The notes beneath the pieces were generated by a model that made no database searches, was not told the origin of the DNA, and saw only the letters and a program-made list of their open reading frames with translations. The translations under genes were made by a program, and so were the position numbers. A stretch of 64,000 nucleotides of DNA, taken from the NCBI RefSeq assembly GCF_902652985.1, contig NC_047020.1, positions 15,624,001-15,688,000 on the forward strand. Direction: 5' to 3'. The stretch is from Pecten maximus. Its lineage: Eukaryota. Positions 1-60,100 of the stretch are shown here, in pieces. How positions within the stretch are numbered: position 1 is the stretch's first letter; the number at the start of each line of letters is the position of its first letter.

Positions 1-339
1 AATTAGAATCAACAGCTTCAAAATATGATTTGAGGATAAGATCATTTGTAATCTTAACCCTGCCCTATTACTCTAGCCATTGTCTATATATATTTTTTAA
101 AATTTACCATTCTTAATTTCTCACTGTTTACATTGGCAAGAATAAGAAACACAAATTTTCGTAAGGCATGATTAACATTTGTATCTTACCTTAATTTGGA
201 GAGGGTGTCATGTTCATAGTATAACAATACCTCTCCTTCTTCTACACCCTACCCACAGTCTACATTTGACTCCATTTTGATCACCTAGCTGTGTCAACAC
301 GTAATCTAGGCCGAAATTCTTCACATAGACATATTTTTC

Positions 340-506
340 TTTCAAAACGAAAGTAGAAATTTACAATAAAAAGATAACATTTAATAATTAAGTATAGTAT
401 AACTATATTTGTCTCCGATTCATTTAACTCCAAATCAATCACATGTGATCGGTTCATTTGCCAGGTGTCGTCGTTACTTTTTTTGTTTTCAAAACGAAAG
501 TAGAAA
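340..506 (+). promoter_or_regulatory. Duplicated IRF/ISRE-like element TTTCAAAACGAAAGTAGAAA upstream of the PARP gene
   Basis: Exact 20-bp direct repeat at 340-359 and 487-506 in otherwise unrelated flanks. Contains AANNGAAA-type IRF half-sites. Confidence 0.6.
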
Positions 507-831
507 CTCCCAATGAAAATTTAAACGTTCATGCATTTAGTGTGTTGGTACATTTCCGTAGAATAATGATTTTAATTGGTCTCAGTGTATTATCAACGGA
601 TGAAATTGGTATTTGCTTACCTTGTTTATCAAATCAGGAATAATTACTGGTCATCGCCAGCCAGGTAGTACAGGTAACGTAAGTACGTACGCTTTTAGGC
701 CCACCAGATGTCAACTTCCTTCTTCAAAGCGTGTCGAATACACAGATACGCTGAAGGGATGAGTGGTTAAACCAGAGTTTTGGCCTAATTATAAGAAGCA
801 TTACTGATGTCACAGTCAAGGAGTAAAGAAG

Positions 832-3800
832 ATGGCAGTGAATCGAAGGGATATGTGTAAGTGTTTTACCAACAGGTACAGGACCAATCGCTTGTAGCCC
901 TAAAACCGGGAAGTGTATTGATCAGTAGGAGTTGATTTTACATATACATTTTGTATATATACATTGGGGAGTTACAGTCTGCCTTGATAACTAGGACCTA
1001 CAGCCTACCTTGATACCTAGGAGTTACAGCCTACCTTGATAACTAGGAGTTACAGCCTACCTTGATAACTAGGAGTTACAGCCTACCTTGATAACTAGGA
1101 GTTACAGCCTACCTTGATAACTAGGAGTTACAGCCTACCTTGATAACTAGGAGTTACAGTCTACCTTGATAACTACGAGTTACAGCCTACCTTGATAACT
1201 ACGGGTTACAGCCTACCTTGATAACTAGGAGATACAGCCTACCTTGATAACTAGGAATTACAGCTTACCTTGATAACTATGCCCTACAGCCTACCTTGAT
1301 AACTAGGAGTTACAGCCTACCTTGATAACTAGGAGTTACAGCCTACCTTGATAACTAGGAGTTACAGCCTACCTTGATACCTAGGAGTTACAGCCTACCT
1401 TGATAACTAGGAGATACAGTTTACCTTGATAACTAGGAGTTACAGCCTACCTTGATACCTAGGAGTTACAGCCTACCTTGATAACTAGGAGTTACAGCCT
1501 ACCTTGATAACTAGGAGTTACTATAAATACATACATTTATGGTGTAATGAATATATCAATACACTTTCCAATCATTGTTGTGTGTTAGACATTCCACAGC
1601 TGAACCTGTATATATGTAAACATGAAATCTACTCTATTGCTGTATTATGTGTTTACTCTGAACTGATGAGCTAACTAGCTTGAAAACTACATATACTACA
1701 TGTAGGTAAAGCATATACATATTTGAGAAGTTAAAGTCTACATATATCTTAATTAATTGATAACTACACAATTGTGCTGTTAAAATCTTTAAACAACTTC
1801 TCAATATACCCAAGAAGTACAAGGTCATACTTTTTTTGTCAGTAGCATACTGGAATGAAGGGTTACCATTTAAGATTGTTCAAATATATGATCTTAACTT
1901 ACTTTTAATGTTTCATTGGTCAAACATGTTAAAATCTTTAATCAACTGTTTCTTATTTACAAAGAGGCCCAGAGTAATGATATTGGTCAGATAGCATGTA
2001 GACTTTAAAAATGGGCTATTAGGATCATAGAGGATCATAAAGGATCATAAAGGATCATTGAGGTTAATAGACAACAATAGAGGACCATAGAGGTCCATAA
2101 AGGAAAATAGAGGACAACAGAGGATCAAAGAGGATCATTAAGGACCATTTAGGTCCATAGAGGAAACACAAGATCATAGTGGACATGATAGGGAATCGAG
2201 GACCAAAAATGATGAAAGTGGATCATAGAGGATCATAAAGGGCCATTAAGGTCCATAGAGGAAAAAAGTGGACCATTGGGGACCATGTACAATAGAGGAC
2301 AACAGAGGATAAAGAATCATAGAGGACCATGATAGACCCTAGAGGAGTCCACAGTGAGGATTGCCTTGTTTACAGTAACCACTGTGGTCTGTAGGTCCAA
2401 ATGAATCCACTCAAAGGTTGTTTGATAAAACATCTCCGGTAATAAAACTGAGATCACATGTTCTTTAGTATATGACAAACATTGCCGTTGATGACATTAA
2501 ACACTAAATACTAGGTAATGTCTTTTTCTGTATTGTTTCTTTTTGTAGGTCCCTCAGCTGATGATAGGGATGTGGTACAGAGGCTGGGAAACATACGATT
2601 GACAATGAGGAAAGGACTTCTACAGCAGGAAAAGGTAGCACAGAAATTTTGGAAATGCATATAAAAGAAAACAACATTGTTTTCGATATATATTAATTTA
2701 CCTTCATGAAGGGAAAGAGAGCTGATTTTTAGGCCTATATGCCTAATTTTAAGGTCATATAGAGGTTGAAGGTTGAATTTAAATTCTTTATCTGGGATAT
2801 TATAGCACCTGACTCACCATGTAGTTTATGCTACTTGATGTGTATAAAGTAGGATGGCAAGATGGTGTATTGCTCAAAACTTTTGTCTGAAGATGGACCC
2901 CTGTGAACTGTGACCATAATTGAGCATAGTTGCGCCTAATTTCCATGTTATGCCTCAGACATAACCATGGTTACCTCAGACATAACCATGGTTACCTCAG
3001 ACATAACCATGGTTACCTCAAACATAACCATGGTTACCTCAGACATAACCATAGTTATACCTCAGACTTAACCATGGTTATACCTCAATGATCAGACATA
3101 ACCATGGTTATACCTCAGACATAACCATGGTTATACCTCAATGATCAGACATAACCATGGTTATACCTCAGACATAACCATGGTTATACCTCAATGATCA
3201 GACATAACCATGGTTATACCTCAGACTTAACCATGGTTATACCTCAATGATCAGACATAACCATGGTTAAACCCCCTGTGTTAAGTAATCCAGTTTATAT
3301 AGGACCCCTATTGGTATAATTTTTTGAACTATCATTTTATACACGTTTGACTAAAATATGTTTCCCTTTAGTCCTATTTATGATGTGTCTAACTGCACGT
3401 TCTAGTTGTAATAACTTAATACAATTTTTCTTAGCATTAATCCATTAGAGAAGTTTTTACTGTTTTAATTTTACAGTTGGTGTAGCTGCTTCAGGTTAAC
3501 TGACAAAGAATCGAAAATTTGAAGTGGATATACAGTTTAGTTTATAACATGTCATCACCGGAAACCCACGAGATACCGCTCTTACGTTTGTATCACTAAC
3601 GTAGAGTAACGATGAGCTGTGTGTCGTTGGTTCCTGACGATGATAACATGTTAGCTACAATAAAACATTATTTTTGTGTCTTCCTGTCAAGGATTTATAT
3701 CAGTCATATCTCCATTGTGGTTTGTCATCAATAACTTCTACTCTGTATTTTTCAGGCAGATGTAATAGTTACAAATTCCTCGGGAAATCTCAATCTAAAG

Positions 3801-6800
3801 GCTGGTAGAACCACACAGGCACTGTTAGAGGCTGCCGGGGACACACTACAGGAACAGTGTAATAAAAATTACCCACAAGGCATCAGGCCTGGGGAGGTTG
3901 CAGAGACAAACGGAGGCAATCTTGATTGTCAATATGTTTTTTATTGTTTCATGACATCATGGGATGATGCAGAGAGAGCTGCCTCACGAGGAGTATGTAT
4001 CTGTGATGTGTCTAATTCATTATTTGATAATATACTGGTAGCAACATTAATTTAGAGGGTTAAAGTGATTTTAAAGCTTTTTTAAGGAGACTGAAATCAT
4101 TAACAATCAACAGTGTGCTAAGTAAAAAAGACAACACATTAACAATCAACAGTGTGCTAAGTAAAAAAAGACAACACATTAACAATTAATCAACAGTGTG
4201 CTAAGTAAAAAAAGACAACACATTAACAATCAACAGTGTGCTAAGTAAAAAAGACAACACATTAACAATCAACAGTGTGCTAAGTAAAAAAAGACAACAC
4301 ATTAACAATCAACAGTGTGCCAAGTAAAAAAAGACAACACATTAACAATCAACAGTGTGCCAAGTAAAAAAAGACAACACATTTTATGATTGATGTAATG
4401 AATATATCTTACTGTCAGTATAGAGAAATTAAAACCCCTTCAAATAATCTGTATAAACCAGACTCTGTTGCATCACATTCATACTTATACTTATAGTAAT
4501 TATTAATGGAATTTCATTTCCTCAATTTAAACCCATTTTTAAGATTATTAACAGAAACAAAGTGTGTTTGATAGTAGGTCAGAGATTGAGACTTCAATGT
4601 AGATCACACTGCACTAACTAATGTATGTAAACAGCCAATCACCATGCAATTCAGGATGTCTTAGTTTAAAGTTAAAATGCCTACAGAGCCTTTTTTGTCA
4701 ATATGTAACCATGAATTATCCATTTTTATATGAGTATAAAACTATATTTTTATGAAGGATTTTTTTTTTTTTGGTTTGTTTATGTAACAAAATAACTTCT
4801 CTAATCTAAATTCCATGTCTTCATGTTCACAATGTGATGTTTTTCAGGTTTTTTGTAAATGTATGAAAACCTGCCTAAACATGGCGGATTCCAATGGGGT
4901 GTGTTCTATGGTTTTCCCGGCCCTGGGGACAGGACTGTTGAAATTCCCAGTGGAGGAGATTTATAACCTAGTGGTGCTGTGTGTCTTAGATTTCTCCAGA
5001 TCAAAACCACAGTCTACACTTACTGATATAACTATGGTGGTCCATCCCAACGATGATGAGATATTAAAAGTAAGTGACATCCGCAGAAATAGTAATGTTC
5101 AAATGTTACAGTAATTCATAGATAATGAATTTGTATTGAGAATTATAGCTGTATACTTCTTTATCCATTATATTATATTTTCCAAATGATTACACTGTGG
5201 TCATGTGATATGTGTTATGGAGATATTTGGGGAAGAGTTCTAGCTATATGGACATCATTCTTGGTTGACTTTCACTTTCGCTAGTCTCTGCACCCCTGGA
5301 TGTGCCTAGGCAAAATTTAAGTCACAATTGACTAGCTACCATGTATGACTTGTGTCTGGGTAAAAAAAAACAACTAATCACGAAGCTGATATCTTTCTTT
5401 TGAAGATCATAGAGGAACAACAATCAAGTAAAGGTATTGTGACCTTGAGGTGTGTTTGATGTACATCAAAGACTCCCAGACAGTAAAAGTGAACTTAAAC
5501 ACCTGGAGTATTAAGGATGCATAGACATATTTTATCTCTAAATGACACTGTAAAGTATAAGGGTTGATTACATGTAAAATAAAGGACAGGATGTCGGAAT
5601 TCAATCTAATTTACTATGTTTTTGATGAGATGGTTCCCTTTTTTAGGGATTTCGTGAAGAAAATAAAAAGTTGCTGAGGAAGCCAAAAGATTGTGCAGGT
5701 AAGTAAGTACAGGATAATTGTCAATTAGAACACTTCTCTCAAACCACAGATATAAATTGGGTCAAATTCAAAAACAATGACTACAACCAATACCCAAGAA
5801 GTATGGAGTGTTTGAACTTTAATTATCTCATCTCAGAACACATGTATGGAAATTTAGGGACTACCGCCCAGTATACAAAGTATCCAACTAATGGACCTCA
5901 GTTGGTGGACTCTATTCCGACCCAGAGCAGTTTTTTTCTCTAAGAAAGCTGAGATCGGACCATTCTATGATGTTGTGGTCGAGTCTATGGAGAAGACACT
6001 TTCTCCCTATTGTAGTGGACAGCATTTAATAGCCTCTTATTTAGTGAGGTAGCTTCCAGCTTCACATACCACAAGAAGACTTTGTCTGAAAATGACTCAA
6101 AGGGCAATAAATCTCACAAACAGACACTTTAGATTGATAAAAAATCAGCAAACATGGAAAAAATAGGATATAGTAATTGTTCTAGATCTCCAAGGGTCAC
6201 AGAATGCACATATTTCACCAAACTTGGCACCAAAAGGCCTTACCAGGAACAAGGGCAAAATCTACCAATGAATCTGTCTCATTTTAAACTCCCGTGTGTA
6301 TATTTTAATGATATGGCTCAGAATATACATTTATGCTGAATAACGGGATACTAACATGCCAATGAAAATTGGGTGGGGTCATAAGATCATAGCATCCACA
6401 ACCCAGAAAATATGTCTCTGAAACTCATTTCCCCAATGGTAATGTCTTTATCAAATTTTATCAATAGATGTTTCTTAAGTGATGAAGCTTAGAATGATGA
6501 TCAAGAAAGGAATATTTTTATAGGGTGTTACTGATACCCGACAATTTTGCAATACTGTTTATATAAAACTTCTTTTTGTACTTGTAGAAAAGACCAGGAT
6601 GTTTTTAAAACTGATTATATACCCACCATTTGAGGACGATTCCTTCACTGTATATTATACAACAGTATGATTGTATCCCTCATAGATCACGACAGTTAAA
6701 GGTCCATTATGGTTCTCACAGGTGAATTCTAACAAATGAAGACTTTTGAGTCAACCTTAAAATGTAATTTAAATTTTTGTTTTTTATTTGTTTTTATTTC

Positions 6801-9800
6801 ATTTTGAAGAGACCAAAGGTGATCTTGAACAGAGGAGTGAAAAGATACAGATTGGACGAACTTGCGTTGCTATAGTAACAGGATCCATTGTAGAACAACA
6901 GGTATGTGACCTTGACCTACTGGTGACCTTGAAAACTTTTTTTATCCCTTCAGATATCTCATAGAGTTAAACAACGAAATTCAAACGACAAAATAATTTT
7001 ATAGTCTGCTAATGCAAAAAAGTCTTTGCTCTATGCTCTGAGTGCAAAAAAAAAAAAAAAAAAATGACAACATAATATAAATACCTGTAACGGGGGAAAA
7101 TCATGCTTGATACTTCAATTAAAAAATCAAATTTGGATTATTGCACAGTGTATTTGTAACCCTGGTACAAAGATGTCTGTCACAATAATAACCAGTTATG
7201 CATTATATAATTGAATTGAACTGTGCATGTTGATTACATCACAAACGAGGTTTTGTCAACAACATTTACTGTACCCACTAATAATTCATGTTATAGAGTA
7301 TCATGCTATGAAATGGGTCAAATCAACTAGGCCAAACAAAACAATATCTGTAGGTAAGATTTCATGGTAAAGAAATCTACCAATTTTATTAGTTCCTATT
7401 CTGACAAAACTTAGACCCCTACCAGTGAATTATTACAGTTTGATAACTAGCAGGGCTTGTAGGGGACATCAATACTCAGTTTGCTTGTTCTTTTTGTGGA
7501 GGTTTTTTGTGGGTTTTTTTTCAATATTTGTGTGAGTGATTGATCATGATTTTGACATCAAAAGTTTAGGTTAATATAAAAACATCTAGAGCTATTAAAT
7601 ATATTGAACCAGGAAACAAATAACATTTTTTGTTTTGCCTTAAATCACAAACTTGGATGTAAATTCAGGCAGATGTCCTTGTAAACTTGACCAACAATAA
7701 GTTGAGACTAGACAGAGGGTCACTGTCCAGGGCTTTCCTAGATGCTGCAGGTGAAGGACTTCAGACGGAATGTGATACATTTGCTGGTGGTCTGAGTTGT
7801 GGGGATATTGCTGTGACCGGTGGCTACTCCCTGCCCTCTGTGAATGTGTTCCACACTACACTGCCTTATTATATGACAAAGGAAAAAGAATCCAACATAG
7901 AGGTAGCAGACATTTTTCTCCTGACAACATGTATTCTTTGACAACATTGTAATCTTTGACAACATTGTATTGACAACATTGTAATCATTAACAACATTGT
8001 AATCATTGACATTATTGTATTCTTTGACATTATTGTAATCATTGACAACATTGTAATCTTTGACAACATTGTAATCATTGACAACATTGTAATCATTAAC
8101 AACATTGTAATCTTTCACGACATTGTATTCTTTGACAACATTGTAATCTTTGACAACATTGTATTCTTTGACAACATTGTAATCTTTGACAACATTGTAA
8201 TCATTGACAACATTGTAATCATTGACAACATTGTAATCTTTGACATTATTGTAATCATTGACAACATTGTATTCTTTGACAACATTGTAATCTTTGACAA
8301 CATTGTAATCTTTGACATTATTGTAATCATTGACAACATTGTATTCTTTGACAACATTGTAATCATTAACAACATTGTAATCATTAACAACATTGTAATC
8401 TTTAACAACATTGTAATCTTTCACGACATTGTATTCTTTGACATTATTGTAATTATTGACAACATTGTAATCATTGACATTATTGTAATTATTGACAACA
8501 TTGTAATCATTGACATTATTGTAATCTTTGACAACATTGTATTCTTTGACAATATTGTATTGACAACATTATAATCTTTGACAACATTGTATTCTTTGAC
8601 AATATTGTAATCTTTGACAACATTGTAATCTTTGACAACATTGTAATCTTTGACAACATTGTAATCTTTGACAACATTGTATTCTTTGACAACATTGTAT
8701 TGACAACATTATAATCTTTGACAACATTGTATTCTTTGACAATATTGTAATCTTTGACAACATTGTAATCTTTGACAATATTGTAATCTTTGACAACATT
8801 GTAATCTTTGACAACATTGTAATCTTTGACAACATTGTATTCTTTGACAATATTGTAATCTTTGACAACATTGTAATCTTTGACAACATTGTAATCTTTG
8901 ACAACATTGTAATCTTTGACAACATTGTAATCTTTGACAACATTGTATTCTTTGACAACATTATAATCTTTGACATTATTGTAATCATTGACAACATTGT
9001 ATTCTTTGACAACATTGTATTCTTTGACAATATTGTAATCATTAACAACAATGTAATCTTTGACAACATTGTAATTTTTGGCAACATTGTAATCTTTGAC
9101 AACATTGTAATCTTTGACAACATTGTAATCTTTGACAACATTGTAATCATTGACATTATTGTAATCATTGACAACATTGTAATTTTTGACAACATTGTAT
9201 TCTTTGATAACATTGTAATCTTTAACAACGTTGTAATATTTGACCAAAGGCAAGTGAGCTTATGCCATGGATAGTGCAGAGTGCTATGCCTGGCAGGCAA
9301 TCTGTACTTTTTTTCATTTTAACAACTTCTGATCAATATAACCAGATGCACAGATACCTGATTTTATGCCTGTAGCATGCTGAGGTGATGACCTTTGGCC
9401 TAGAGATCTGATATTGGGCCAGAGCATGCTGGGGTTAAAGGCTACCAAGTTTGTTGAAAATAACTATTACCTTGACTTACATTCAAAGTCACATGGTTCA
9501 CTGTCTAAAAATCTTTAAACAGCAATTTGTCAATGACCAAGAGACCTGACATTGGGCCAGCAGTATGCTGGGATCAGGGCTACAAAATTTGTTTAAATGA
9601 ATGACCCTTAAGCCTATACTCTTATATTGTATGAACTGGTTTTTAGCTAATTAACATCTACATAAATTACTTAGATCAATGTCAAAGTTGTATAAGAAGC
9701 AGGTGAGTGATACAGGCTTTAAACTTCACTGACAAAGTTATAAGCCATTCCCATATCAAATGTTAAGACATTTTACCAGACAAATGACTGATGGCCCTGA

Positions 9801-12800
9801 CAAAATTCATTCTACAGCTAGGGTTGCTCTAATGCATACATGTAGCAGATGCTGAATTTGTCTAACATTTCATGCTTCATTTAAAATCAAGTTAAGGAGG
9901 TTTGTATCTTCCATATCTAGGCTATACAAACAGTGTACTAGTACTACAGCCATTAAACTTTCAGGTTCTACTGAAAACATGTTGAAGATGCTGAAATTGA
10001 CCTTCAATTGCACTGTAAACTCACATATTATAGAAGTCCTATTTTTGTGCTGAGGCACCCCGCCAAATTGTACTAGTTGTAGTTGTTGTATATGTGAATG
10101 TTGTTTTGTACAACAAAAATTGCGAGTGTACAAATTCAACATCACACTACATGTAATTTGATTAAATTCAATTATGTACTAAAGTTTGAGTCAGTTGAGT
10201 ATTTTAGACTAACTGTCTACTCTATTTTGTATCAGAGATTATTGTTTAACAATTAATCAGGTTTTATAGAATAGGAGAGATAAAGTATTTTGATTAGTTT
10301 TATGATTTAAAGTGTGAAGTGTATGTCCTGCTGTAGGTCCTGACACTAGTGGTTCAGCAATGCCTGATGCAGTTAGAGGATATGAATCTCCGAAGTATTG
10401 CTTTTCCCTGTTTTGCCTGTGGTCAGCACCGCTATCCAGACTCTGTTGCAGCGACGACCTTTCTTCAGACTGTTGATGAGTACATCCAGAACAACAATCA
10501 AACTTGTGTTGAGGAGATCTCCTTGGTGATATACCCTGGAGGACCATCTCTGTGGAAGGAAGTCTGGCAGGTCAGTGCCTCCTGCTCTTCTAAATCTGAT
10601 ACTTAAATTCATCAAAATTTAAGAGTTTTGCTCCTGATTAGTTACCTTGTTTTTACATCGTACATAAAGGCAACCCAGGAGTTTCAAGAATGAATCTGAT
10701 AGAAAATATAAAGTAAATCAGTTTAAAAGTTTGTTATTGATGTAATTTTCAATTGAAATGAAATCTTAATTAACTTTTTATACAAAATCCAATAAAGCTG
10801 TATGGAAAGTAATGGTAAAGATATCAATGTTGCATCAATTTTAATGGTAAAAGAAGTTACACTTTAGAATACATATGTACGGTAGTAGGTGAAATAACAA
10901 AAAAAAAACTATTTTTGATTTCATTTGTCGTGCATTAACCTTGTCCACACCATTTTATGTGAGTGTGAGTATGGGGGGTGGGGGTGGGGGGGTGATATAG
11001 ATATATTTTTATGGATGTCCGTCTGTCACCCTCAACCACATCCCGATCCATTCATAATCAATTTCATATGTGAAGAAACCCAAAAAAGATTTGGTAACAT
11101 CAAATTCTAACTTCAAGTTTTACACCTTCTGGTGGTCATTAGTCAAGGTCACCTTTGACCCCTGCTGGGTACAATGTGTCCTGTCTTGTTCTGAATCAAT
11201 GTCCAAATCAACAGATTTAGTTACTGTTTATATCAAGGTAACATCAAGCTATATTCACATCATCAGCTTCATCCTAAAACCACTTAACAGATTTTGGGGG
11301 AACTTGACGAGATGGAAGGCCAAGTTGAAAGCTAAACCAGACATGCAGGGAACCATAGGGAGTTGGCTTTTATTCCTTATCCACTAATATATCTACAGAC
11401 AATGCCATTTACTTGTTGTAGTCGTACAACTGAAGAAACAATATTCAGAGAATTGAAAAAATTATCCCTTTAGGTTGTTTCCTTTGAGATCAGGTTCCCC
11501 ATTTTATCTATGTAAAAAATAGACAATAACATTCATTTTGTATGTAAACTATAATAGCAAACTATGACTCCCTCCCCAATAACAAACAGGGGACCTTAGA
11601 GACTCTTCAGGTTTCAAACCTATTCATCACAAATGGTTGTGAATTTCATTTCTTCTATCATTTTTTTCAGACATTTGTCAAGGAACTTAAAACTTTAAAG
11701 AAAAGACATGTTAAAAGTTCTGACACTGAGGTAAAGCCTGCAGTTCTACCTGGCTGGGGAGCCAGACCAAAGGTGATAGTTAGGCCTGTATATCAGCTGA
11801 AGAAAAAACCCAAACATACAGTCATTCCAGTGACTCCAGCTGCTCCGGTACGCGGAACAAAAGAATGGTTCCAATTGAAATACACTGAGGATATTTGTAC
11901 ACCAGATTACTGGGTACACCACAAGGGGGGAACTCCAGTCAAAAAACTCAAACTTTCTCTGGAAGTCTCCCTGAAAAAGGCTTACGTGCTGAAGCAGGTT
12001 GATCATAGTACTAGAGATGCTGTTGTCAAACTAGTAAATGAAACTTGGGAAATGGATAAATTTGGAGCGGGTAAAGATGCTAGGGGCTTAGATGAGCTTG
12101 GTTATAGTAAAATTGAGGTGAAGGAAGTGCTACGAGTAGAAAACTTGGATCTGTATGAAAAATATGCGACAGAACGACAGAGGATTTTTTCAAAAGCTTC
12201 AAAGAAAGGCCAGTCTTTGACCTCAGTCAAAGATAGTAATGGTTCAGATGGAGAAGTTTGTACTTATACCAAAATGAAGCCTTGTTTAAAGAATGAGCTA
12301 TTTCCTGAGATAAATGAACATTATTTATTCCATGGGACCAAGGAAAACATTATCGAGAAAGTGTTGTCACAGGGCCTGGACAATAGGATGGCTGGGGACA
12401 ATGCCATGTTTGGTCAAGGTGTTTATGCTGCTGAGAGTTCTACAAAAGCAGATCAGTATGCTGGTTGGTATAAACAATTCTATTGCATGTAATTTTTGAA
12501 AGAATCATATTTTATGTAGAACATCAATGGGCGAAGGCAACTTAAATTTGTATAACTGGAATGTCTTTAAACGATTCTTATAATCTCCATTTGGTGCAGA
12601 GTGCATTTTAGGAATGATCGGAAACCAAGTTGAAATTTGTAATTATTCATAATATAATGAAGGTAGTCTTCTCAACTTTCATAAGTAGGTAAATGCTTAG
12701 TTGTGCATGGTGAATCTTGTGACATGATCAGGAAAACAATATGGTGGACAGGCAGCCATCTTGTATTTTATGGTCAAAGTTTGTTACTGCCGATTCTCAG

Positions 12801-13470
12801 AAAGTTTTAAAAGGATCTTTTTTGAAATTTCACATCTAGGTTTTTCGTTTGCATATCTGTCTGGTGTGTTTTGCAAATTGATTTGAAACCAAGATGGGAG
12901 ACAGACAACCATCTTTGCTAGGTGATGTTTGTTATCACTATTTCTTAGAAAAAAACATTGGATTATTCTCATACTTCATGTGTAGGTTGTTCATCCTTCC
13001 TAGTTAGTAGAATAAGGTACTGATCAGAAACGAAGATGATTGTTGATTAGTGCTTTCTTAGTCCGTCAAAGGAGACAAAGAACTTTAGGTGATCTCTTTT
13101 AGATTTGAAAATAAACTTAAAGAAGATACAAAATTATTATACCTTTTCGATGATTTTTTTCATACTAGTTGAAATTTTGATATTGTGTAAAAAAAATTTC
13201 TTGTGTATCTTTATAGATTTCAAAGACAACAGGACTACATCTCCAAAGAAAATGTTTCTGGCAAGAATGTGCCTAGGGGAAGCATATGTATCCAAGACTG
13301 CTAACAAGTACAGGCGACCTCCTTGCAAAGAGTGTTTCCAAGACAACTGTGCTCACAAAAAATTTTACGACAGTGTAGTAGGAGATGGGAAGTGGATCTT
13401 TCGGGAATTTGTTGTGTACGATCCACGGCAAAGTTACCCAGAATTCCTCATCACATATGTCAGGAAATGA
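832..13470 (+). CDS. Macrodomain-containing poly(ADP-ribose) polymerase (2 macrodomains + PARP catalytic domain; PARP14/15-like architecture, no WWE domain seen), ~742 aa
   Basis: Exons, all GT-AG and phase-consistent, total 2229 nt: 832-856, 2549-2634, 3756-3992, 4848-5069, 5647-5698, 6810-6901, 7669-7902, 10337-10570, 11671-12463, 13217-13470. Macro 1: EKADVIVTNSS..ALLEAAG..GEVAETNGGNL..SMVFPALGTG. Macro 2: QQADVLVNLTN..LSRAFLDAAG..SIAFPCFACG. PARP domain: NEHYLFHGT, MFGQGVYAAESSTKADQY, MFLARMCLG, YDSV, REFVVYDPRQSYPEFLITY. Confidence 0.92.
968..1521. repeat. 26-bp minisatellite (AACTAGGAGTTACAGCCTACCTTGAT)n, ~21 copies, PARP intron 1
   Basis: Tandem units visible directly, with no spacers. 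Confidence 0.95.
2020..2345. repeat. Degenerate ~10-bp tandem repeat (AGGATCATAG)n
   Basis: Recurrent aggatcatag/aggaccatag units. Confidence 0.8.
2953..3268. repeat. 21-30-bp minisatellite with palindromic core ATAACCATGGTTAT
   Basis: Units cagacataaccatggtta(ta)cct, with or without caatgat. Confidence 0.9.
3544..3652. repeat. Degenerate ~110-bp hairpin (ATAACATGTCATC...GATGATAACATGTTA), probable transposon remnant
   Basis: Imperfect inverted arms around a ctcttacgtt...aacgtagag apex. Confidence 0.5.
4099..4383. repeat. ~40-bp minisatellite (ATTAACAATCAACAGTGTGCTAAGTAAAAAAAGACAACAC)x7
   Basis: Tandem copies visible directly. Confidence 0.95.
5268..5280 (-). promoter_or_regulatory. Consensus IRF-E (CGAAAGTGAAAGT on - strand) in PARP intron 4
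   Basis: actttcactttcg at 5268-5280 is the reverse complement of the GAAAGTGAAAGT IRF1/2 consensus. Confidence 0.4.
7922..9240. repeat. 18-bp minisatellite (TTGACAACATTGTAATCT)n, ~70 copies, PARP intron 7
   Basis: Tandem units; explains the spurious repetitive VVKDYN / MLSKIT ORFs. Confidence 0.97.
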
Positions 13471-36200: not shown

Positions 36201-39200
36201 ATCTTATTTTCTTCCTGTGAAGGAGCTGGACATAATAGCCAATGGAATTGAATGGCAGGCCACTCTACCAATCACAACCATAGGAAAGTTAGATGCCATT
36301 GTGTTCTGGTTTGACCTTCACCTTGATGATGAAATCTCTATAACAACAAACCCTTCCATGGAGAACTGCTGGGAGCAAGCAATATTCCCTGTACTTCCAT
36401 CCCATTTCCATCAAAACTGCTGTGGAATGCTTCATGGTAAATATTATAAGACTCTATCATATGTGGTCATGTAGGATAGGGATATTCCACCCGAGGGGTC
36501 ACAAAATGTGGTAAAACCCGAGGCTCTGCCGAGGGTTTTACCACATTTTGTGACCCAGAGGTTGAAATATCCCTATCCTACATGAACCACATATGATTGA
36601 GTATTTTTCTCTCATTCCCCAACCTAAAATATGCAAAAATAGGCACTATCTGTCGATAGCTTTCTCAGATAGACGCCATTTTTTCTCAATCCAAACTTTT
36701 TTTCTACTGCATATAATAAAAAAAGAACAGCGCCAATCGATTTACCATACCCCATATATGCAAACAACGTTTGCTGTTCTAAAAACGAAGGAAACCATTC
36801 ATTTCCACAGTCTTAACGTTGTTTCAGCAGCCCTGTCATTGCAAGCGAAGCCAAATCACTTGATGTTGGCCAAGCTAGTGTGTCCTTTCGCGTGAAAATA
36901 TAGTTCCATGTTTTATTAATAAAAAACAATAAAAGAACGTGTTTTTTTACATAATTTATATCATAAATAAAAAAAATTATTATCTGATTACATATCTTAA
37001 TTCAATGACGATGTGTTTACAAATCTATAGATAGATCTACTTTCGGTTCGGCGACCTACTTTTGTATCATTGCGTGCGCGTGGCTATCCTACACCGGAAG
37101 CGAGGTAATACACACACAGCAAGCATGGGTGTATTTACCTGGACAGACCAGTATGATACCGGTAGGGATGAGAGAACAGTAATTGCTTAATATGATTGCA
37201 GCTCTAATGAATTTTTTTTATATATAATTTCCTTTCATTAGAATGCATTCCTCAACTTCATAATCTTTAATTTTTCAGACACACAACATGGTTTTATAAT
37301 TCGAGAGGGAGACTCTCTTCATGTGAAGTTCAGTCTGGGGGAAAATTGTCTGTGGTTGGTGTCTTGTCACTGTTGCCATGACAGTGATGAATCGGTGCCC
37401 TACATGCCCTTGGCAGACTTCATCTGTCCACCTCAGGTCACAGAACAATACATGCTGGACAGGACAGAAATAGACAAACTTAACAATTTGTATTACAATA
37501 AAATGTTCTGTCAAGCTATAGACAAACACGTTTCACTTCTCAATGGTGCCGACAGCCTCAGAATCCTGGATTTCTGTGGTGGATTATCTCCCCTTTGTTT
37601 ACAAGCACTGAAGGATAGTCATCATCTAGGTATTGTAATAGCTAGAGAAGGGCTGCAAGACCTTATATGGAAGCTGATGTCTGTAAATGGCATAGAAAAT
37701 GACAGACTTCTGCTTGTGGAACCTTCAAATCTGTCAGAGGTTGAGGGAGAGTGTCAACTCCTCTTGTGCGACATCATTGAACAATGTGGCATTCTTAAGC
37801 AGCAAGTCCTAGAGGACATCGCTCTTCTCAGGTGAGTAAACAAAACAAGTTCATTAGTATTTTTCAAATTAGACTAAGTACACTTTCCAGGTACGTCAAG
37901 CTCTAACACTTTCCAGGTAAGTCCAGTTTGAACACTTCCCAGGTAGGTACAGTTTGAACACCTCCTAAGTAGGTACAGTTTGAACACTTTCCAGGTAGGT
38001 CCAGTTTGAACACCTCCCAAGTAGGTACAGTTTGAAAACTTCCCAGGTAGGTACAGTTTGAACAATTCCCATGTAAGTCCAGTTTGAACACTTCCCAGGT
38101 AAGTCAAGTTTGAAGACTTCCCAGGTAGGTACAGTTTGAAGACTTCCCAGGTAGGTACAGTTTGAACACTTCCCAGGTAGGTACAGTTTGAACACTTCCC
38201 AGGTAGGTCCAGTTTGAACACTTCCCAGGTAGGTACAGTTTGAACACCTCCCAGGTAAGTCCAGTTTGAACACTTCCCAGGTAGGTCCAGTTTGAACACC
38301 TCCCAAGTAGGTCCAGTTTGAACACTTTCCAGGTAGGTCCAGTTTGAACACTTGCCACAAGCAGGCCGTGTTTGTCCCAGGTACATCAAGTTAGACTAAG
38401 TACATCTTCCAGGTATGTCAAGCTAGTGTGCTTCCAAGGTACGTCAAGTTAGAATAAGTACAACAACTATGCTTTCCAGGTAGGTCCAGTTTGTACACGT
38501 CCAAGGTAGGTCCAGTTTGTGCACGTCCAAGGTAGGTTAATTTAAGTACAATTTCTAGGTAGGTCAAACTAGTATGCCTCCCAGATAGGTCAGGTTAGAC
38601 TAAGTACAACAACTAAGCTTTCCAGGTAGGTTCAGTTTGAGCACTTCCATGGTAGACCCAGTTTGAGCACTTCCAAGGTTGGTCACGTTTGTACACATTT
38701 CAGATAGGTCAAGTTACACATGAATTGACTACTGATATACATTATGTATACCCAGGGTCAACCTTTCCACTGTATATATGAGAGTTCCCTGAAACATATC
38801 TCCTGTGATAAATTAAATTGAAATAGAATAGACTAGTAATACATACCTGTACTTCATGTTCTTCTTCAAACACAGGGCCACATGTCTATGTTCTGGGGGA
38901 GTCATCATTCCTGGCAAGGTTACCATCCATGGTCTCTGTGTGGAGTCGGAAATGCTACATGGAGATAGTGCCGTCATCAATGAACGCACACTGGGTTACA
39001 ACATTGCCAAGTACATGAACAATTATCAGGTAGGTCTTCACCAAATCTGAACATCTACCCACTTTAATGTAATTGTACCCCACTACCTACCGTACAACAA
39101 AGTATTATAAAGCACTGTCATTATTTATTTTATTCCTTCTGCAAGCCTTTCATTTTAGTTATATTGGCATAGTGGTTCTCGTTCTGGGTAATAGGAGGAT

Positions 39201-40973
39201 ATTACACTAATTGTATCTTGTCTTATTCCATTTTAGATATACATGTATATTTGCTTTAATAACAGTTTTACAAAAAGTTCATCGGAAATCTTGTGATTGT
39301 CCTTCTGGTAGGGATTTCTGACTTTCAACTTTGCCAGTATTTATAAATTTTTAAAAAGTTTTAAAAATTTAAAAGATAAAACTGTCTTAAGATTAAAATT
39401 TTTCACAAGTCCACCTGGTTATATACGATCTTGAGGCAAAGATGGGTAAAGTATCTGGGGGCATTACCTCTTAGAAGCTGTTCAATTTCTATGTTTGGGC
39501 ATACCTAGCATTGCAAGTATTCAGTACATGTTGGCCATGATGTTTTCTTGAGAGATTGTCCCTAGTATTATCCAGATATCTGAAATCCAGATATAAATAT
39601 TGGAGTGACTGAGGGTGCAACATTTACTCTTGGATGTGATTCCATAATGGTGTCAAGGTATACATGTAGTTGGTGTGTTCATATATTGGGTATTCCAATC
39701 ATTTGTGGTGGATTCCAATAGTGAAGGGTTTGAGTGTTGATCAAGTTTCAGTGATTTGGTAATCTACAATCCATAGTGAGTGATTAGTAATGTGGACAGG
39801 TTTCTAGCTGTGATATTCTGTATAATGTTGTGTGTATTTGACAGTGATTTTACTCTTGAAAAAAAGAATGCCTGACAGGTGGCAATCTTAGATATTTAAC
39901 CAACCAATCCATCATCAAATGGGAGCAGAGGCAGAATAAATTGTCCATTGTGAATTTATCAAGAAATACAGAATGGATCTTCTCCTTGGTGCCTTGTTAT
40001 GCAATTTACCAAGATTGATGAGATAAACAAAATGTCTGACTGAAGGCCATCTTGGATTTTGTTTCAGGTCTTATTGCTATTTCTCAGAAAGTGCTGGATT
40101 AATGTCATATGCACCAGTATAATCATCTTGGTGCCTAGTGGTGCATGTTAAGTTTGTGACTGATCAGATAAACCTAATTGTTGATTGGACAGACTGGCCC
40201 CCAGCCCCAAAGAATGGAATTATCCCCCCTAGTTTGACTAGACATATCCTAGGGACCAAAGTTATAAAGAACAATTTTATTTATAACCTAATAATATTCT
40301 GGACAGGTGTCAGTCTACCACTAGGTTTAATCTGGCATTTTGTTAGTTTTAGGATTGTTATTGCTATTCTCAGTAAGTGTTAGATGGATTCTCCAAAACC
40401 ATTACAAAAACAGGTTTCCCTTGGTACTTTGTTGAGGCTAATTGGATTACAAAATTGCCAACAGGTGGCTATTTTGCTTTTTGACAGATGAAGTTTTTGC
40501 TATTCTCAGAAAATATTGAATTAATTTGAATTTTATTGCATGTTTTATGTTTCAAATAATTTCTGTTTAACAATACAAATATGTCCTTCTTCCAGATGAC
40601 TAACCATGTTGATATAGATCTGGCAACGTTATCACATGTCAGGCTCTCGGACCCATTTGTCTTGATGAAATTTGATCTCAACGAGCATCTCCATAATGAT
40701 GAGCCTCCATCCTTTCTGGAGCAGACACAGGAGGTGAAGGTCACCATGACAGATGTAGGACATCTCACTGCTGTTGTATACTGGTTTGAATTTGAACTGG
40801 CTGATGGTTTGAGGTTCACAACACTCGATGGAACCTCCCATTGGAAACAAGCTGCTGTAATGTTAAAATCTCCTATTGAATTTACAATGGGACAAACAGT
40901 GGACTTAAACATTTCATTGAAAAACAGTTGTATCAGTATCAAAATTGGTAAACAGTTGAATGATACTCCATGA
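27280..40973 (+). CDS. PRMT9: Protein arginine N-methyltransferase 9 (TPR + two PRMT modules), ~786 aa
   Basis: Exons 27280-27572, 31835-32071, 32834-33001, 33157-33268, 34842-34918, 35400-35574, 36223-36436, 37279-37831, 38876-39029, 40596-40973 (2361 nt, phase-consistent). N-terminal TPR; [12 protein letters not shown]; motif [13 protein letters not shown]; double-E loop [13 protein letters not shown]; CWEQA; second module ends SHWKQA. Confidence 0.95.
27773..29119. mobile_element. Non-autonomous TIR transposon (CAGAG..CTCTG, 7-bp TSD, P-like) carrying ~4 tandem 210-bp repeats
   Basis: TIR CAGAGACATATATACAGAGAGATT / AATCTCTCTGTATATATGTCTCTG. TSD CAGAAAA at 27766-27772 and 29120-29126. Unit starts near 27950, 28150, 28360, 28570. 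Confidence 0.85.
29500..30160. mobile_element. Older, inverted relative of the 27773 element (single internal unit)
   Basis: ~29795-30150 is a reverse-complement copy of ~27785-28170. Degenerate TIRs lie at ~29505 and ~30155. Confidence 0.7.
32062..32300 (+). repeat. 34-38-bp tandem amplification of the PRMT9 exon 2 / intron 2 junction
   Basis: Unit GAATACTGAG|GTATGTAACTTAACTGGTTCAAGGTCGG, about 6 copies including the real donor. Confidence 0.9.
33429..34691 (+). mobile_element. HINE-like element with ~300-bp internal repeats (PRMT9 intron 4)
   Basis: 5' hairpin AGGTCACCTGAGACAAAGTCTCAAGTGACCT, gtccgtcgtcgtgcgtccgt tract, 3' CAGGTGACCGTTAAGGCCCATGGGCCTCTTGTT. Confidence 0.8.
36463..37176. 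mobile_element. Non-autonomous element with ~125-bp terminal palindrome and asymmetric inverted repeat (Crypton-like architecture)
   Basis: Palindrome ~36463-36590. Internal TTCTCTCATTCCCC (~36607-36620) is inverted relative to terminal GGGATGAGAGAA (~37165-37176). Confidence 0.65.
37876..38715 (+). repeat. 26-bp minisatellite (CCAGTTTGAACACTTCCCAGGTAGGT)n in PRMT9 intron 8, degenerating 3'
   Basis: Tandem units visible directly; most contain CAG|GTAGGT or CAG|GTAAGT. Confidence 0.92.
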
Positions 40974-42141
40974 ATAAAAGAACCGATATCAGACACCATT
41001 GTAAAATAGCCAATGAATTGTACATCACCAAATACAGTGAATACATTTTATACAATATCCAAAATTGTAATCTGTACAGTGAATCCATGTACTATATGTA
41101 TTGTATATACAGTTGTCATTAATAGTCCAGGAAATACAATCAAACCATTTTAACAATGACAGATGAAATATTTTAAGACTTCTGAAATTCAAGTTATTGA
41201 CTGATGCTGTAGCCAGGAAGTTCTGCAATGTATAGAGGCCAAGAAAAGCATGTCACTATGTCGGTGACGAAGAATTGACATTACAGGGAAACAATTCTTG
41301 AAATGCAATCAATTTAACAAGAAATATCTTTAAAAAAGATAAACGGCATAGTTTTAATGCTGGTGGTTATAATGTAAAACTGCTGGTTAAATAAATCAAC
41401 AAATTAATGCGTTTCAGCACAGATAACAAAATTATATCAGTTTGAATCATTTTTGGTGATAATAAGACTGCATTTGAATCAGGAATATAATTTTATTAAT
41501 GTATCATTTGAAAAGGATACATCCACTTATTCAGCTTGCATTCAATCTTAACTTTGTTTCGTCTTTTTAATTGCATATCTGTATTTTGCATTTACTGCTA
41601 CATTGACCAATCACATACTTCATCTTGACCAGTAACGCCACCTGTCGCGTCATATCCGGGCCAAAAGAATATTATACGGCCATGCCGAAAAATCTTCAGG
41701 TCAAATCAGAACTTTTTTAACTTGCATGTCAGCTTTAATCTTGAACCCTAATATTGCAAGGCTAAAGGTTTGGAATGATATAATCCCGCCAGAATCATCT
41801 AATATAAAGGTCTTAATTATTAAGAATCCTTCTCCTGACTGAAGCAAGCTTTTATCACAGTGCAAAGCCTTTCCTGAAGGAAGCATGAACGGGGACTGAA
41901 AGATAGTATCAATAGTAAGAAATGCAAGAGATTGTATGAAATTGTGTGAATTCTGTCAAAATGGGAACTTTCCTCAAAAGTTGCAAACTATATTTGTTAA
42001 TTTCAAAAATGGTGGAACAAACACAAAAGACAATTTAAAGGCAGATTATTTGCAATAGGTACATGTTCAAATTCCTAAGGAAGACTCCATTGATCAGTAA
42101 CTGAACTTTGAGGTATCCATTGGCTGACCTGTTGTGTAAAA

Positions 42142-57100: not shown

Positions 57101-60100
57101 ATATCCATTTGAGTAAACAGATTCCATATGCTTGCTCCATATTTCAGGTATGGACTAAGTGCTTTATACAAATAAAAGTATACATGTATACAAGTAGCTC
57201 AAAGTATTTTCATCTAAATACGTGTAAATATATGCTCTTCTAATTTTTTGCTTTATTGACCGATTCATATATATGGTCCGTAAAAGTTTGCTGTCTGTGA
57301 TTATTCCCATGCAAATCCCTCTATTTGTTAAGTTTTTCCAATTCAACTTTTTTTCTCATCCTTGAACATATAAAGCTGTAGGGTATCTGTTGACCTATTG
57401 TTTTCTAATGTTAGAACTTTACATTGAAACTGCAAAGGGCTATAACTCTGCAAGTTACATCAACTCGGTCCCATGGCATTGTCAAACTCATCAGAGATCT
57501 AAATGATAGAAGGCTGCATACCATTAACTAAATTGTCTTGGCCAAACTAGTCCCTTTTGGTATAGTGTTACATATAAATATAAAAAAGGCCTGAAATGTT
57601 TTCATTAGAGCTGTGTATCAATAGGTGGGTAGCGATACGATTCGTAGCACGATACAGGGGTCAGGATACAATACGTATCACGATATATGAGTAGCTGATG
57701 ACCTATCAGATATCTGGTATTCCAGTGTACAGTAGTCATGTTTTGTTTGTGGTATTTCGGAATATTAAAGAGTCTTTGTTGACATTTGTTTAAAAAACAT
57801 AAATTGTAGTCAATAGAGAACAAATCAGTTATAAAAATTTCTGACACAAAAAGATAGATATTGACAGAAATTGACAGTTCTTGTGTAAATACAGTGTCAC
57901 ACTAGTTATTGGCCCATGTTAAAAAGAAGACAACCGTTTTTGCTTACAAACTTATAGGAGCTTTCCAGTATGTGTTTTTTTTTCAAATCATCCTGCATTT
58001 GAGTAAATTATTACTCGTACATAGTATAGTAACTGTTATTCAAATAGTTACTATACTATGTGCAAGTAACTTTTATTCAAATTTGCCCTGCAGGTAGGGC
58101 ATAAGAATTGTACCTGCTGCCCCCCATTGCATGATCGTAAGAGGCGACTAAATTTGGGATCTTATCTTTTAACAACTTTCTTCTTCCTAATGTCTCCCTT
58201 GACAATGCCTCACTTTTGGCCTTTAGTTGAGCGTTCGCCCCTGTGAGGAAGGCTTTGAGTTCTGTCCCCTAGCCGAGACATACCAGAGTCTTTAAAAATG
58301 GTAGTTGCTACTCCTGCTTAGTGCTCAGCATATTTGGAGTGGGACGACTGGTTCGCCCGTTGTCAGTATAATGTGACCGGGTGGGGTGTGCTGCTGGGTG
58401 TCTTTGGCAGTATGCTTCAGTTAGGTAGCGCTATAAATCGGCAAAAGTTCCGGCCTATCACAAGGAGACTTAACAAAAACATACCGCAGCCTTCCAAAAC
58501 ACACATACGCACTCACCACACGCATGCATGACGCACGCACGGGAGGCCGTCCTTAAATGACCTTAGCTGTTAATAGGACGTTAAACAAAATAAACCAAAG
58601 TTATTCAAATGCAGGACTTGTTGATATTGTTTTGACCAATTTATTATCAATATTCAATATCATGATTCATCATATGTGATAGCCCAGATGACTTGCGGTT
58701 TGACCAGACTAACATGCACATTTTAACGGAATGGTCAACTGACAACGAAATCTACCATTTCAGATGTTTGGAAACGTTATGTAACCCGTGGAACAGTTGT
58801 TAATAACCCTCGATGCGGAAGGACGCCATTTCTGGACGAACGTGAGAAGCGTCGCGTTATTCTTTGTGTCCGGAAAAACAGAAGAAATTCTTTAGCCGAA
58901 ATAACCAGCAAAGTAAATAATTCTAGGACCATTGTAAATGATGCTCCGGTTAGTTCCAAAACTATTGACAGGTTTTTAAAGTCTGAGGGCTACGCTAGAC
59001 GAATTACAAAGAAAACTATGGTCGTTCGAGAGGTTAACCTGAGGAAAAGAGTATCTTTTTGTTACGAAAAAAGAAATTTGACAGTGGATAATTATTGGAA
59101 AGGTGTTATATTTTCCGATGAGAGCCAGATTGTTGTTGGTAATGACAACAGGATTTTTGTATGGCGAAAAAAGGACGAGGGGTACCGCCCGGATTGTGTC
59201 TGTCCCAGGTCACAAAGGAAACTTTCGGTGATGATTTGGGGGTGCATTACTTACAATGGAGTTGGAACCATATGTTGTGTTGACGGTACTATTAATGCTG
59301 TAAAATATATCCAAATTTTAGAAGATAATCTCTGGCCGGTAATTGCCAGACACTTTGCAAATGACAGGTATGTGTTTCAACAAGACAATGCCCCCGTTCA
59401 CAAGGCCCGTGTGGTGTCGGAATATTTTGAAAACAACAATATTTCAACATTAGAATGGCCTCCACAGAGCCCAGATTTAAATATAATTGAAAATGTGTGG
59501 CTGAAGATTAAAATAAAACTTAAATCGATGGTACACAACATCAACAATAAAAACCAACTGTACGAGGCTATCACGGATGTGTGGCGATCGTTGGAAACGG
59601 AATACATCCAGAGTTTATATAACACAATCCCAGACCGTCTGAAGGAAGTCAGGAAAGCAAAGGGCAATATTACCAAATATTAAGTAAGTAAAACAAACAG
59701 GTTTTTCAGATATGGCGGTTTTAATTTAGGCAACACTATACCGCACGTTATAACGCAACGTCATTTTGTCTGAATACTTCTGTCCGGTCTCTGTAGCTAC
59801 ATGTTGCGGGAAATAGTTAACACTTTTGAAAAGTGTCAAATACTTTCACGCTACACCAGAGAAGTTCATCCAACAAGTAGATATGAAAATTTACCTACTG
59901 ATGGGCAATTTCGCCGTTCAGCAGGCTATCTGTGTATATCAAACTAGCCCTGAGTGATTTATCTAGGCCTACAATGTCAGCCTTACATTCTATTTGACCA
60001 GAGGGAGGGAACATGGGAAACTGAACCTTGAGACTGGATGACTGCAATTGACAAGGTACTGGTAGACATTCACTTGGCTTTAGATCATATGTGTGGAGAA

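What the first reader, a model, noticed from the sequence alone, without database searches (positions are those of the whole stretch)
340..506. Duplicated IRF/ISRE-like boxes suggest the PARP is an interferon-stimulated-like antiviral gene in an invertebrate
Seen: an exact 20-mer TTTCAAAACGAAAGTAGAAA at 340 and 487 in non-repetitive flanks, 330-490 bp before the ATG, and a perfect GAAAGTGAAAGT on the - strand in intron 4 (5268-5280). Known: IRFs bind AANNGAAA repeats, vertebrate macro-PARPs are ISGs, and molluscs have IRFs and dsRNA-inducible responses but no recognised interferon. Inference: an IRF-driven ADP-ribosylation defence module.
Basis: partly seen in the sequence, partly recalled or inferred. 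Interest (0 to 1): 0.7.

Follow-up and report, generated by a model that had tools for sequence, protein, structure and literature searches.

The report
Scallop PARP behind paired IRF boxes
A scallop ADP-ribosylating enzyme gene has two identical DNA boxes just upstream of where its RNA is seen to begin, and similar boxes sit in front of several of the scallop's virus-sensing genes, so it is likely switched on by IRF proteins as part of an interferon-like defence, although binding and induction are untested.

Summary
The exact 20-mer at 340 and 487 is real (0 of 100 shuffles). It lies about 290 and 140 bp upstream of the furthest RNA 5' end (648) of an intact 742-aa Pecten maximus macro-PARP (two macrodomains, H-Y-E PARP). 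The flanks match none of the repeats tested. The core fits an IRF element. The same motif lies 45-270 bp before the probable start codons of viperin and 5 of 6 RIG-I-like receptors. It occurs in CpG-rich DNA within 4 kb of 7 of 16 immune-type genes versus 0 of 14 housekeeping controls (p=0.006, best of six filters; unfiltered 9/16 vs 5/14, p=0.23). Against: a pre-set replication on IFI27-like genes gave only 2 of 9; the motif also occurs before an NTHL1-like gene and inside repeats (20 of 30 sampled copies of the 16-mer). The intron-4 site is real but otherwise unsupported. Verdict: likely IRF-controlled, ISG-like promoter; binding and induction untested. IRF-ISRE activity and poly(I:C)-induced PARP14 are already reported in oysters. 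The scan noted similar motifs before, on other DNA (scallop MYND-OB cluster, Aplysia PARP14).

The parts
340..359 (+). Distal IRF-E/ISRE-like box (CAAAAC-GAAA-GTA-GAAA)
   Evidence: exact copy; about 290 bp upstream of furthest RNA 5' end
487..506 (+). Proximal IRF-E/ISRE-like box, identical, 147 bp downstream of the first
   Evidence: about 140 bp upstream of furthest RNA 5' end
290..760 (.). CpG-undepleted promoter-like stretch; the only 500-bp bins above 0.7 between -10 kb and +13 kb are 1-1000; possibly shared with the head-to-head paralogue
   Evidence: sharing is inference, not confirmed by RNA
648..856 (+). Exon 1: 5' UTR from 648 or earlier, ATG at 832, spliced to exon 2
   Evidence: contigs in 3 of 4 runs end at 858 with exon-2 letters as loose end; longest starts at 648
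832..13470 (+). Macro-PARP gene, 10 coding exons (832-856, 2549-2634, 3756-3992, 4848-5069, 5647-5698, 6810-6901, 7669-7902, 10337-10570, 11671-12463, 13217-13470), 742 aa: Macro, Macro, PARP with H615-Y646-E722
5268..5279 (-). Perfect IRF-E 12-mer in intron 4; function unsupported (also fits a Blimp-1 site)
   Evidence: PMC2938208 passages
181..200 (-). Splice-donor-like AAG|GTAAGA, candidate end of a non-coding first exon of the divergent paralogue
   Evidence: sequence only; no RNA contig covered it

Best explanation
The two 20-mers lie in the proximal promoter of an intact, expressed macro-PARP gene and are likely binding sites for scallop IRF transcription factors, which would raise this gene's expression together with viperin, RIG-I-like receptors and other macro-PARPs when dsRNA or virus is sensed. 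Shown: sequence, position, gene model, expression, recurrence of the motif before immune-type genes, presence of IRF genes. Inferred: an IRF1/2-like dimer sits on each AAAAC-GAAA-GTA-GAAA box; the pair arose by an old local duplication and was kept exact by selection; the promoter may also drive the head-to-head paralogue 5 kb upstream; the protein reads ADP-ribose with two hydrolase-dead macrodomains and writes it with an H-Y-E PARP domain. No interferon-like cytokine is needed for this: direct RLR/STING to IRF signalling would do.
For: Exact pair beyond chance; third exact genomic copy against about 0.01 expected, 90 bp before another ATG exon. RNA 5' end at 648 or earlier. Motif S = AAA[ACG][CT]GAAA[CG][CT], written before the immune loci were scanned, found before viperin and 5 of 6 RLRs, 45-270 bp from probable start codons and on the sense strand. 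Immune-type vs housekeeping: 9/16 vs 2/14 in CpG-rich DNA (p 0.02), 7/16 vs 0/14 within 4 kb (p 0.006). De novo, the top 8-mer in viperin+RLR upstream regions is AAAGTGAA (6/7 vs 0/14). Motif-first, non-repeat 16-mer sites lie before an IRF gene, a PARP14-like gene, a NADAR gene, a caspase, a RING/B-box gene and MIEAP-domain genes. Four IRF loci keep R-C-x-x-N (three with S, one with K), the residues that contact GAAA (PMC7819612). Oyster IRFs activate ISRE reporters (PMC5557890); three oyster genes annotated PARP14(-like) or PARP partial rise 1.9-3 fold after poly(I:C) (PMC7064767 Table S5).
Against: No binding or induction data for this gene. Unfiltered gene-first test is not significant (9/16 vs 5/14, p 0.23), six filters were tried, and four RLRs are close paralogues. 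Pre-set replication on IFI27-like genes: 2 of 9. 0 of 4 IRF genes have motif S within 9 kb of the first detected coding exon; two have it 13.6-13.9 kb away, start sites unverified. 2 of 5 other macro-PARP genes scored negative. The motif also sits before an NTHL1-like repair gene and in several repeats; 8 of 19 non-repeat loci had no identifiable neighbour. IRF knockdown did not blunt ISG-homologue induction in Nematostella (PMC8713801). The oyster PARPs were not shown to be orthologues of this gene, and one further PARP14 row is unregulated.
Confidence: 0.66

Rival explanations
1. The boxes are bound by an IRF (or another general activator) that keeps the promoter open and gives steady, not inducible, expression; the motif is a common promoter element rather than a mark of an antiviral regulon.
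For: Exon 9 is held by 20 of 23 listed runs from 7 studies (treatments unknown, some may be DNA). Two boxes precede an NTHL1-like gene. Several repeats carry the core. Mammalian IRF1 drives basal expression of defence genes (PMC7819612).
Against: 0 of 14 housekeeping genes have a CpG-context box within 4 kb and AAAACGAAAGTA is absent from 120 kb of proteasome-gene DNA; a general element should appear there.
Confidence: 0.2
2. The boxes are Blimp-1/PRDM1 (or other zinc-finger) repressor sites, since these share the GAAAGT core with IRF elements.
For: BLIMP1 and IRF motifs overlap and both families are ancient (PMC2938208 passages). The intron-4 site and several RLR boxes have the GTGAAAGT form.
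Against: BLIMP1 motifs have a GTG or GNG triplet before AAAG; the window's boxes read ACG there, and carry a second GAAA half-site. I did not search the genome for PRDM1.
Confidence: 0.06
3. The pair is a neutral by-product: a local duplication or a repeat relic in AT-rich DNA, with no regulatory role.
For: 3' flanks show residual similarity. The 15-mer TTTCAAAACGAAAGT is barely enriched (18 vs 12 control) and several copies lie in one repeat end. 20 of 30 sampled 16-mers lie in one 1.27-kb repeat.
Against: The box is 20/20 identical while 3' flanks are about 57-67% alike; neither repeat tested aligns to the promoter beyond the box; an exact third copy stands before an unrelated gene start.
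Confidence: 0.08

Closest known systems
Vertebrate IRF-E / ISRE promoter elements (IRF1/IRF2; PMC7819612, passages)
   Same: AANNGAAA core, two GAAA units, proximal promoter position, found before viperin, RLR and macro-PARP homologues.
   Different: GAAA units are 3 nt apart (canonical ISRE spacing is 2, recalled) with a third degenerate CAAA half-site 2 nt before; no IRF9/ISGF3 or true interferon is known in molluscs (recalled); binding untested.
Human macro-PARPs PARP14 / PARP15 / PARP9 (PMC10221186, section 14 and passages; PDB 3vfq, 5o2d, 3q71)
   Same: Tandem macrodomains plus C-terminal PARP domain; macrodomains align best to PARP14 (E 2e-34).
   Different: Only two macrodomains, no RRM/KH/WWE by Pfam; catalytic triad H-Y-E in 80 of 85 relatives whereas PARP12 has Ile at that column and PARP14/15 have Leu (recalled); NAD-binding half matches tankyrase best. 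Named hits are all molluscs.
Oyster and scallop IRF / ISG-like antiviral response (PMC5557890, PMC8218723, PMC13524488, PMC7064767; passages and one supplement)
   Same: Four IRF genes; IRFs act on ISRE reporters; viperin, RLRs and PARP14-annotated genes rise after poly(I:C) or OsHV-1.
   Different: In the passages seen these studies used mammalian ISRE/IFN-beta reporters or the CgIFNLP promoter; they do not give a native motif shared by viperin, RLR and PARP promoters, which is what is seen here.

Membership tests
IRF-E / ISRE element | AANNGAAA core with two or more GAAA units | tested here: met
   AAAAC-GAAA-GTA-GAAA at 344-359 and 491-506; definition from PMC7819612. Spacer between the two perfect GAAA is 3 nt.
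IRF-E / ISRE element | Lies in the promoter or enhancer of the gene | tested here: met
   RNA contig starts at 648; CpG o/e 1.28 at 290-760. True start site not mapped: contigs cannot show it.
IRF-E / ISRE element | Shared by promoters of ISG homologues more than by housekeeping genes | tested here: inconclusive
   7/16 vs 0/14 and 9/16 vs 2/14 with CpG filter, 9/16 vs 5/14 without; 2/9 in the pre-set IFI27-like replication.
IRF-E / ISRE element | An IRF with GAAA-contacting residues is encoded | tested here: met
   4 IRF loci; RCALNS in 3, RCALNK in 1.
IRF-E / ISRE element | IRF protein binds the site | not testable with these tools
   needs EMSA or ChIP
Interferon-stimulated-like gene | Induced by dsRNA, virus or cytokine | not testable with these tools
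   only contigs of runs without treatment labels were available; oyster PARP14-annotated genes are induced but orthology was not established
PARP14 | Three macrodomains with RRM/KH and WWE domains | tested here: not met
   two Macro + PARP only, 742 aa, in-frame stop before the ATG, 2498-nt RNA contig
PARP14 | Hydrolase-active macrodomain 1 | tested here: not met
   by sequence only: neither domain has the loop-1 Gly / loop-2 hydrophobic-aromatic pattern given in PMC10221186; first domain aligns to PARP14's second
Macro-PARP (macrodomains + PARP catalytic domain) | Macro and PARP domains in one chain | tested here: met
   Pfam PF01661 x2, PF00644
Dispersed repeat | Flanks shared with other genomic copies | tested here: not met
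   no alignment beyond the box to the 30 loci, the 27 other loci, or the two elements; no genome-wide search of the flanks was run

The most novel reading that the evidence does not exclude
The scallop genome carries a readable native IRF code, (G/C)AAAA(C/T)GAAAGTA(G)AAA and variants, that marks an interferon-independent antiviral regulon. That regulon includes an ADP-ribose arm unlike the vertebrate one: a mollusc clade of compact macro-PARPs that keep the catalytic glutamate (possible chain-forming writers), PARP14-like genes and a NADAR-domain gene, with this box pair driving two head-to-head paralogues; a Helentron-like repeat spreads the same box to about a hundred further sites.
Probability: 0.35. 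Interest if true: 0.72.

Novelty: new member of a known kind. Interest (0 to 1): 0.47.

Why it matters
Whether invertebrate ISG homologues are switched on directly by IRFs is open: oyster IRFs work on mammalian reporters, but IRF knockdown had no effect in Nematostella. A native motif found in the same position before viperin, RLRs and macro-PARPs gives exact probes for EMSA, reporters and ChIP in a farmed bivalve, and a way to predict unknown defence genes from sequence. It also points to an unstudied mollusc macro-PARP clade with an H-Y-E active site as a candidate effector.

Tried and rejected
Genome-wide 16-mer enrichment (154 vs 7) as proof of a regulatory motif: rejected as stated, since 20 of 30 sampled loci are one repeat; after excluding that repeat's flanking bases the count was 29 vs 14, 7 of which share another segment. 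15-mer count (18 vs 12): uninformative. RNA test of the bidirectional promoter: no contig covered 181-330 and the paralogue's exons were covered by one shallow contig in 1 of 4 runs, with no 5' information; no conclusion. Nucleosome-length spacing (146-148 bp seen here, at one RLR and in one gene family): the search was limited to that spacing (8 hits, 0 control, about 4 independent), so it cannot show a preference. STAT (GAS) or NF-kB partner sites: one TTC-N4-GAA at 554, chance level by my estimate; no kB match near the boxes. First exon of the sixth RLR (C18) not found in about 29 kb upstream, which is repeat-filled. Protein Atlas gave no result. Hu et al. 2022 on scallop IRFs is not held. 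Cross-species promoter conservation could not be tested: no related genomes are held. One of 10 IFI27-like matches (unplaced contig) and one duplicate proteasome gene on an unplaced contig were left out of the counts.

Full report
OBSERVATION. The 20-mer TTTCAAAACGAAAGTAGAAA is present exactly at 340-359 and 487-506 on the + strand and nowhere else in the window with up to 3 mismatches; 0 of 100 shuffles give two matches. GAAAGTGAAAGT lies at 5268-5279 on the - strand (3 of 100 shuffles give one). The whole genome has three exact copies of the 20-mer and none of the reversed control; Markov models of order 1-4 expect about 0.01. The third copy ends 90 bp before an ATG exon of an unrelated gene with a weak KH-domain match.

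THE GENE. Ten GT-AG exons from 832 to 13470 give an open 742-aa frame, identical to the NCBI protein named 'PARP14-like [Pecten maximus]'. It has two Macro domains and a PARP domain and nothing else in Pfam. The triad H615-Y646-E722 is kept in 80 of 85 relatives found (5 have a gap at the third column); the named hits are bivalves and gastropods (search limited to 353-2000 aa and E<=1e-20). The macrodomains align best to human PARP14, the NAD-binding half of the catalytic domain to tankyrase, its end to PARP12, which has Ile where this protein has Glu. By the criteria in PMC10221186 (section 14 read) neither macrodomain looks hydrolase-active; this is my reading of the sequence. It is therefore a macro-PARP but not a PARP14 by architecture. 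RNA contigs in 3 of 4 runs join exon 1 to exon 2 as modelled; the longest (2498 nt) starts at 648, so the boxes are about 140 and 290 bp upstream of the furthest 5' end seen. Contigs cannot fix the true start. CpG o/e is 1.28 over 290-760, and 1-1000 holds the only 500-bp bins above 0.7 between -10 kb and +13 kb. The upstream neighbour is a paralogue on the - strand, head to head, whose coding sequence begins about 5 kb before the window; a third paralogue follows, and one public model fuses those two into 1421 aa. A donor-like site near 190 on the - strand suggests a shared promoter, but RNA did not confirm it.

IS IT A REPEAT? The 16-mer AAAACGAAAGTAGAAA occurs 154 times against 7 for the control, but 20 of the first 30 loci are one 1.27-kb dispersed element, and 7 of 29 loci of a pattern that excludes it share a 250-nt segment. 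The window's promoter aligns to neither beyond the box. The 30-100 bp downstream of the two window boxes resemble each other more than GC-matched genomic DNA does (p 0.001-0.014); upstream flanks do not. The simplest reading is an old local duplication with the box kept exact, which implies selection (inference).

GENE-FIRST TEST. I wrote motif S, AAA[ACG][CT]GAAA[CG][CT], before scanning immune loci and scored up to 9 kb upstream of the most 5' coding exon detected for viperin (1), RLRs (6), IRFs (4) and other macro-PARPs (5), against 12 proteasome genes and two housekeeping regions of the window (loci; this gene and its head-to-head neighbour excluded). Results: any match 9/16 vs 5/14 (p 0.23); CpG-rich context 9/16 vs 2/14 (p 0.02); within 4 kb 8/16 vs 3/14 (p 0.11); both filters 7/16 vs 0/14 (p 0.006); with a following A 8/16 vs 3/14 (p 0.11), and with CpG 8/16 vs 1/14 (p 0.013). 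The filters were not fixed in advance and four RLRs are close paralogues. Reading the sequences, the boxes stand about 125 bp (viperin), 45, 59, 67, 146 and 120/266 bp (five RLRs) before probable start codons, all on the sense strand (start codons not RNA-verified); the CARD-bearing RLR on C12 has two boxes 146 bp apart, like this gene. De novo, AAAGTGAA is the top 8-mer for viperin+RLR (6/7 vs 0/14), although the top 7-mers are unrelated words. Three of five other macro-PARP genes have matches, two do not; no IRF gene has one within 9 kb, but two have perfect boxes 13.6-13.9 kb upstream in CpG-rich DNA, one followed by a donor-like site. A replication fixed in advance on IFI27-like genes gave 2 of 9, both in one cluster: weak.

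MOTIF-FIRST TEST. Of 19 independent non-repeat loci of the 16-mer that I examined (this locus included; out of 154 sites, 100 listed), the neighbours were: this PARP, an IRF gene, a PARP14-like gene with four boxes, a NADAR-domain gene (290 bp), a caspase (two boxes), a RING/B-box gene (two boxes), MIEAP-domain genes, an NTHL1-like glycosylase (two boxes), the KH-like gene, an SLC34-like exon and an OB-fold-like family (both named from recall, no Pfam hit), and 8 unidentified. The set leans to immune, cell-death and ADP-ribose genes but is not pure.

INTRON-4 SITE. A perfect IRF-E, but in CpG-poor DNA (0.26); the related 13-mer is only 1.9-fold over control genome-wide (845 vs 456). Real, possibly functional, unsupported.

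THE FACTOR. The genome has four IRF loci whose recognition helix reads RCALNS in three and RCALNK in one; R82, C83, N86, S87 contact GAAA in IRF1 and the family consensus is AANNGAAA (PMC7819612, passages). Blimp-1 shares GAAAGT but wants GTG or GNG before AAAG (PMC2938208, passages); the window's boxes have ACG.

WHAT IS KNOWN. Oyster IRF2 and IRF8 are induced by poly(I:C) and activate human ISRE reporters (PMC5557890, passages); scallop IRFs are said to bind ISRE (second-hand in PMC13524488, passages; the primary paper is not held); an oyster IFN-like protein has been proposed (PMC8218723, passages). In the Lafont data 5 rows name a PARP: three PARP14(-like) or partial rows rise after poly(I:C) (peak log2 0.9-1.6), PARP1 rises in control too, one PARP14 partial is unregulated (PMC7064767 Table S5, rows found by search). 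PARP14 is listed among oyster antiviral effectors (PMC12803857, one passage). In Nematostella, partial IRF knockdowns did not change cGAMP-induced expression (PMC8713801, passages). Searches listed no paper whose title or abstract start gives a native mollusc IRF motif shared by viperin, RLR and PARP promoters; the library lacks most subscription journals, where shellfish immunology is often published, and other supplements were not read. Two earlier notes of this scan report similar motifs on other DNA; they are unchecked and not counted as support.

VERDICT. Observation confirmed; interpretation partly supported. Most likely an IRF-controlled, ISG-like promoter of a mollusc-type macro-PARP (0.66); steady IRF-driven expression 0.20; neutral by-product 0.08; Blimp-1 0.06. 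It is a new member of a known kind of element. Its value is that it supplies a native, testable motif and a candidate regulon for an open question; interest 0.47.

Noticed in passing
L030, L035, L039, L048 and 16 more loci: A 1.27-kb dispersed element (20 of 30 sampled sites, so about 100 copies if the sample is typical) carries GAAAACGAAAGTAGAAAAA about 320 bp from one end; its ends show a short subterminal inverted repeat and a 3' hairpin, like Helentron-associated elements (label recalled). It could spread IRF sites.
   Followed up: partly
L065, L073, L075, L076, L084, L085, L086: A shared 250-nt segment has the 17-mer box next to an NF-kB-like palindrome (GGGGTTATCTCCCC) and ends in a donor-like site; mobile promoter cassette or element fragment, unresolved.
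   Followed up: partly
L026-L029, L156 (0-50 kb upstream of the window): Two further 2xMacro-PARP genes on the - strand; public protein P0004 (1421 aa) appears to fuse them into one model.
   Followed up: yes
L216:2798-9513: A NADAR-domain gene has a perfect box 290 bp before its first long ORF: a candidate ADP-ribose eraser under the same control.
   Followed up: partly
L089:4973-9654: An NTHL1-like DNA glycosylase gene has two IRF-type boxes before its probable ATG; unexplained.
   Followed up: no
L023:566-3698: The third exact 20-mer precedes an unnamed gene with a weak KH match, a candidate unknown defence gene.
   Followed up: partly
L101, L102, L107, L198-L201: A tandem gene family on C12 and two unplaced contigs has paired boxes 139-152 bp apart; not identified by Pfam.
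   Followed up: partly
L140:4655-5723; L194:1501-1712; L241-L242: Clusters of boxes: six within 1.1 kb on C5, a 67-bp tandem array on C2, and five copies in a repeat near the end of C18.
   Followed up: no
L119 and L120: One viperin exon matches twice, 2.6 kb apart, with equal scores: exon duplication or assembly artefact.
   Followed up: no
window 58727-59683 (+): Open 318-aa Tc1/mariner transposase ORF (DDE_3, HTH_Tnp_Tc3_2) inside an intron of a DnaJ gene (about 46-60 kb, - strand).
   Followed up: no
window 24607-41000: NDUFC2-like gene (-) and a TPR + arginine-methyltransferase gene (PRMT9-like, +) lie head to head; no motif S in the 9 kb scanned.
   Followed up: partly
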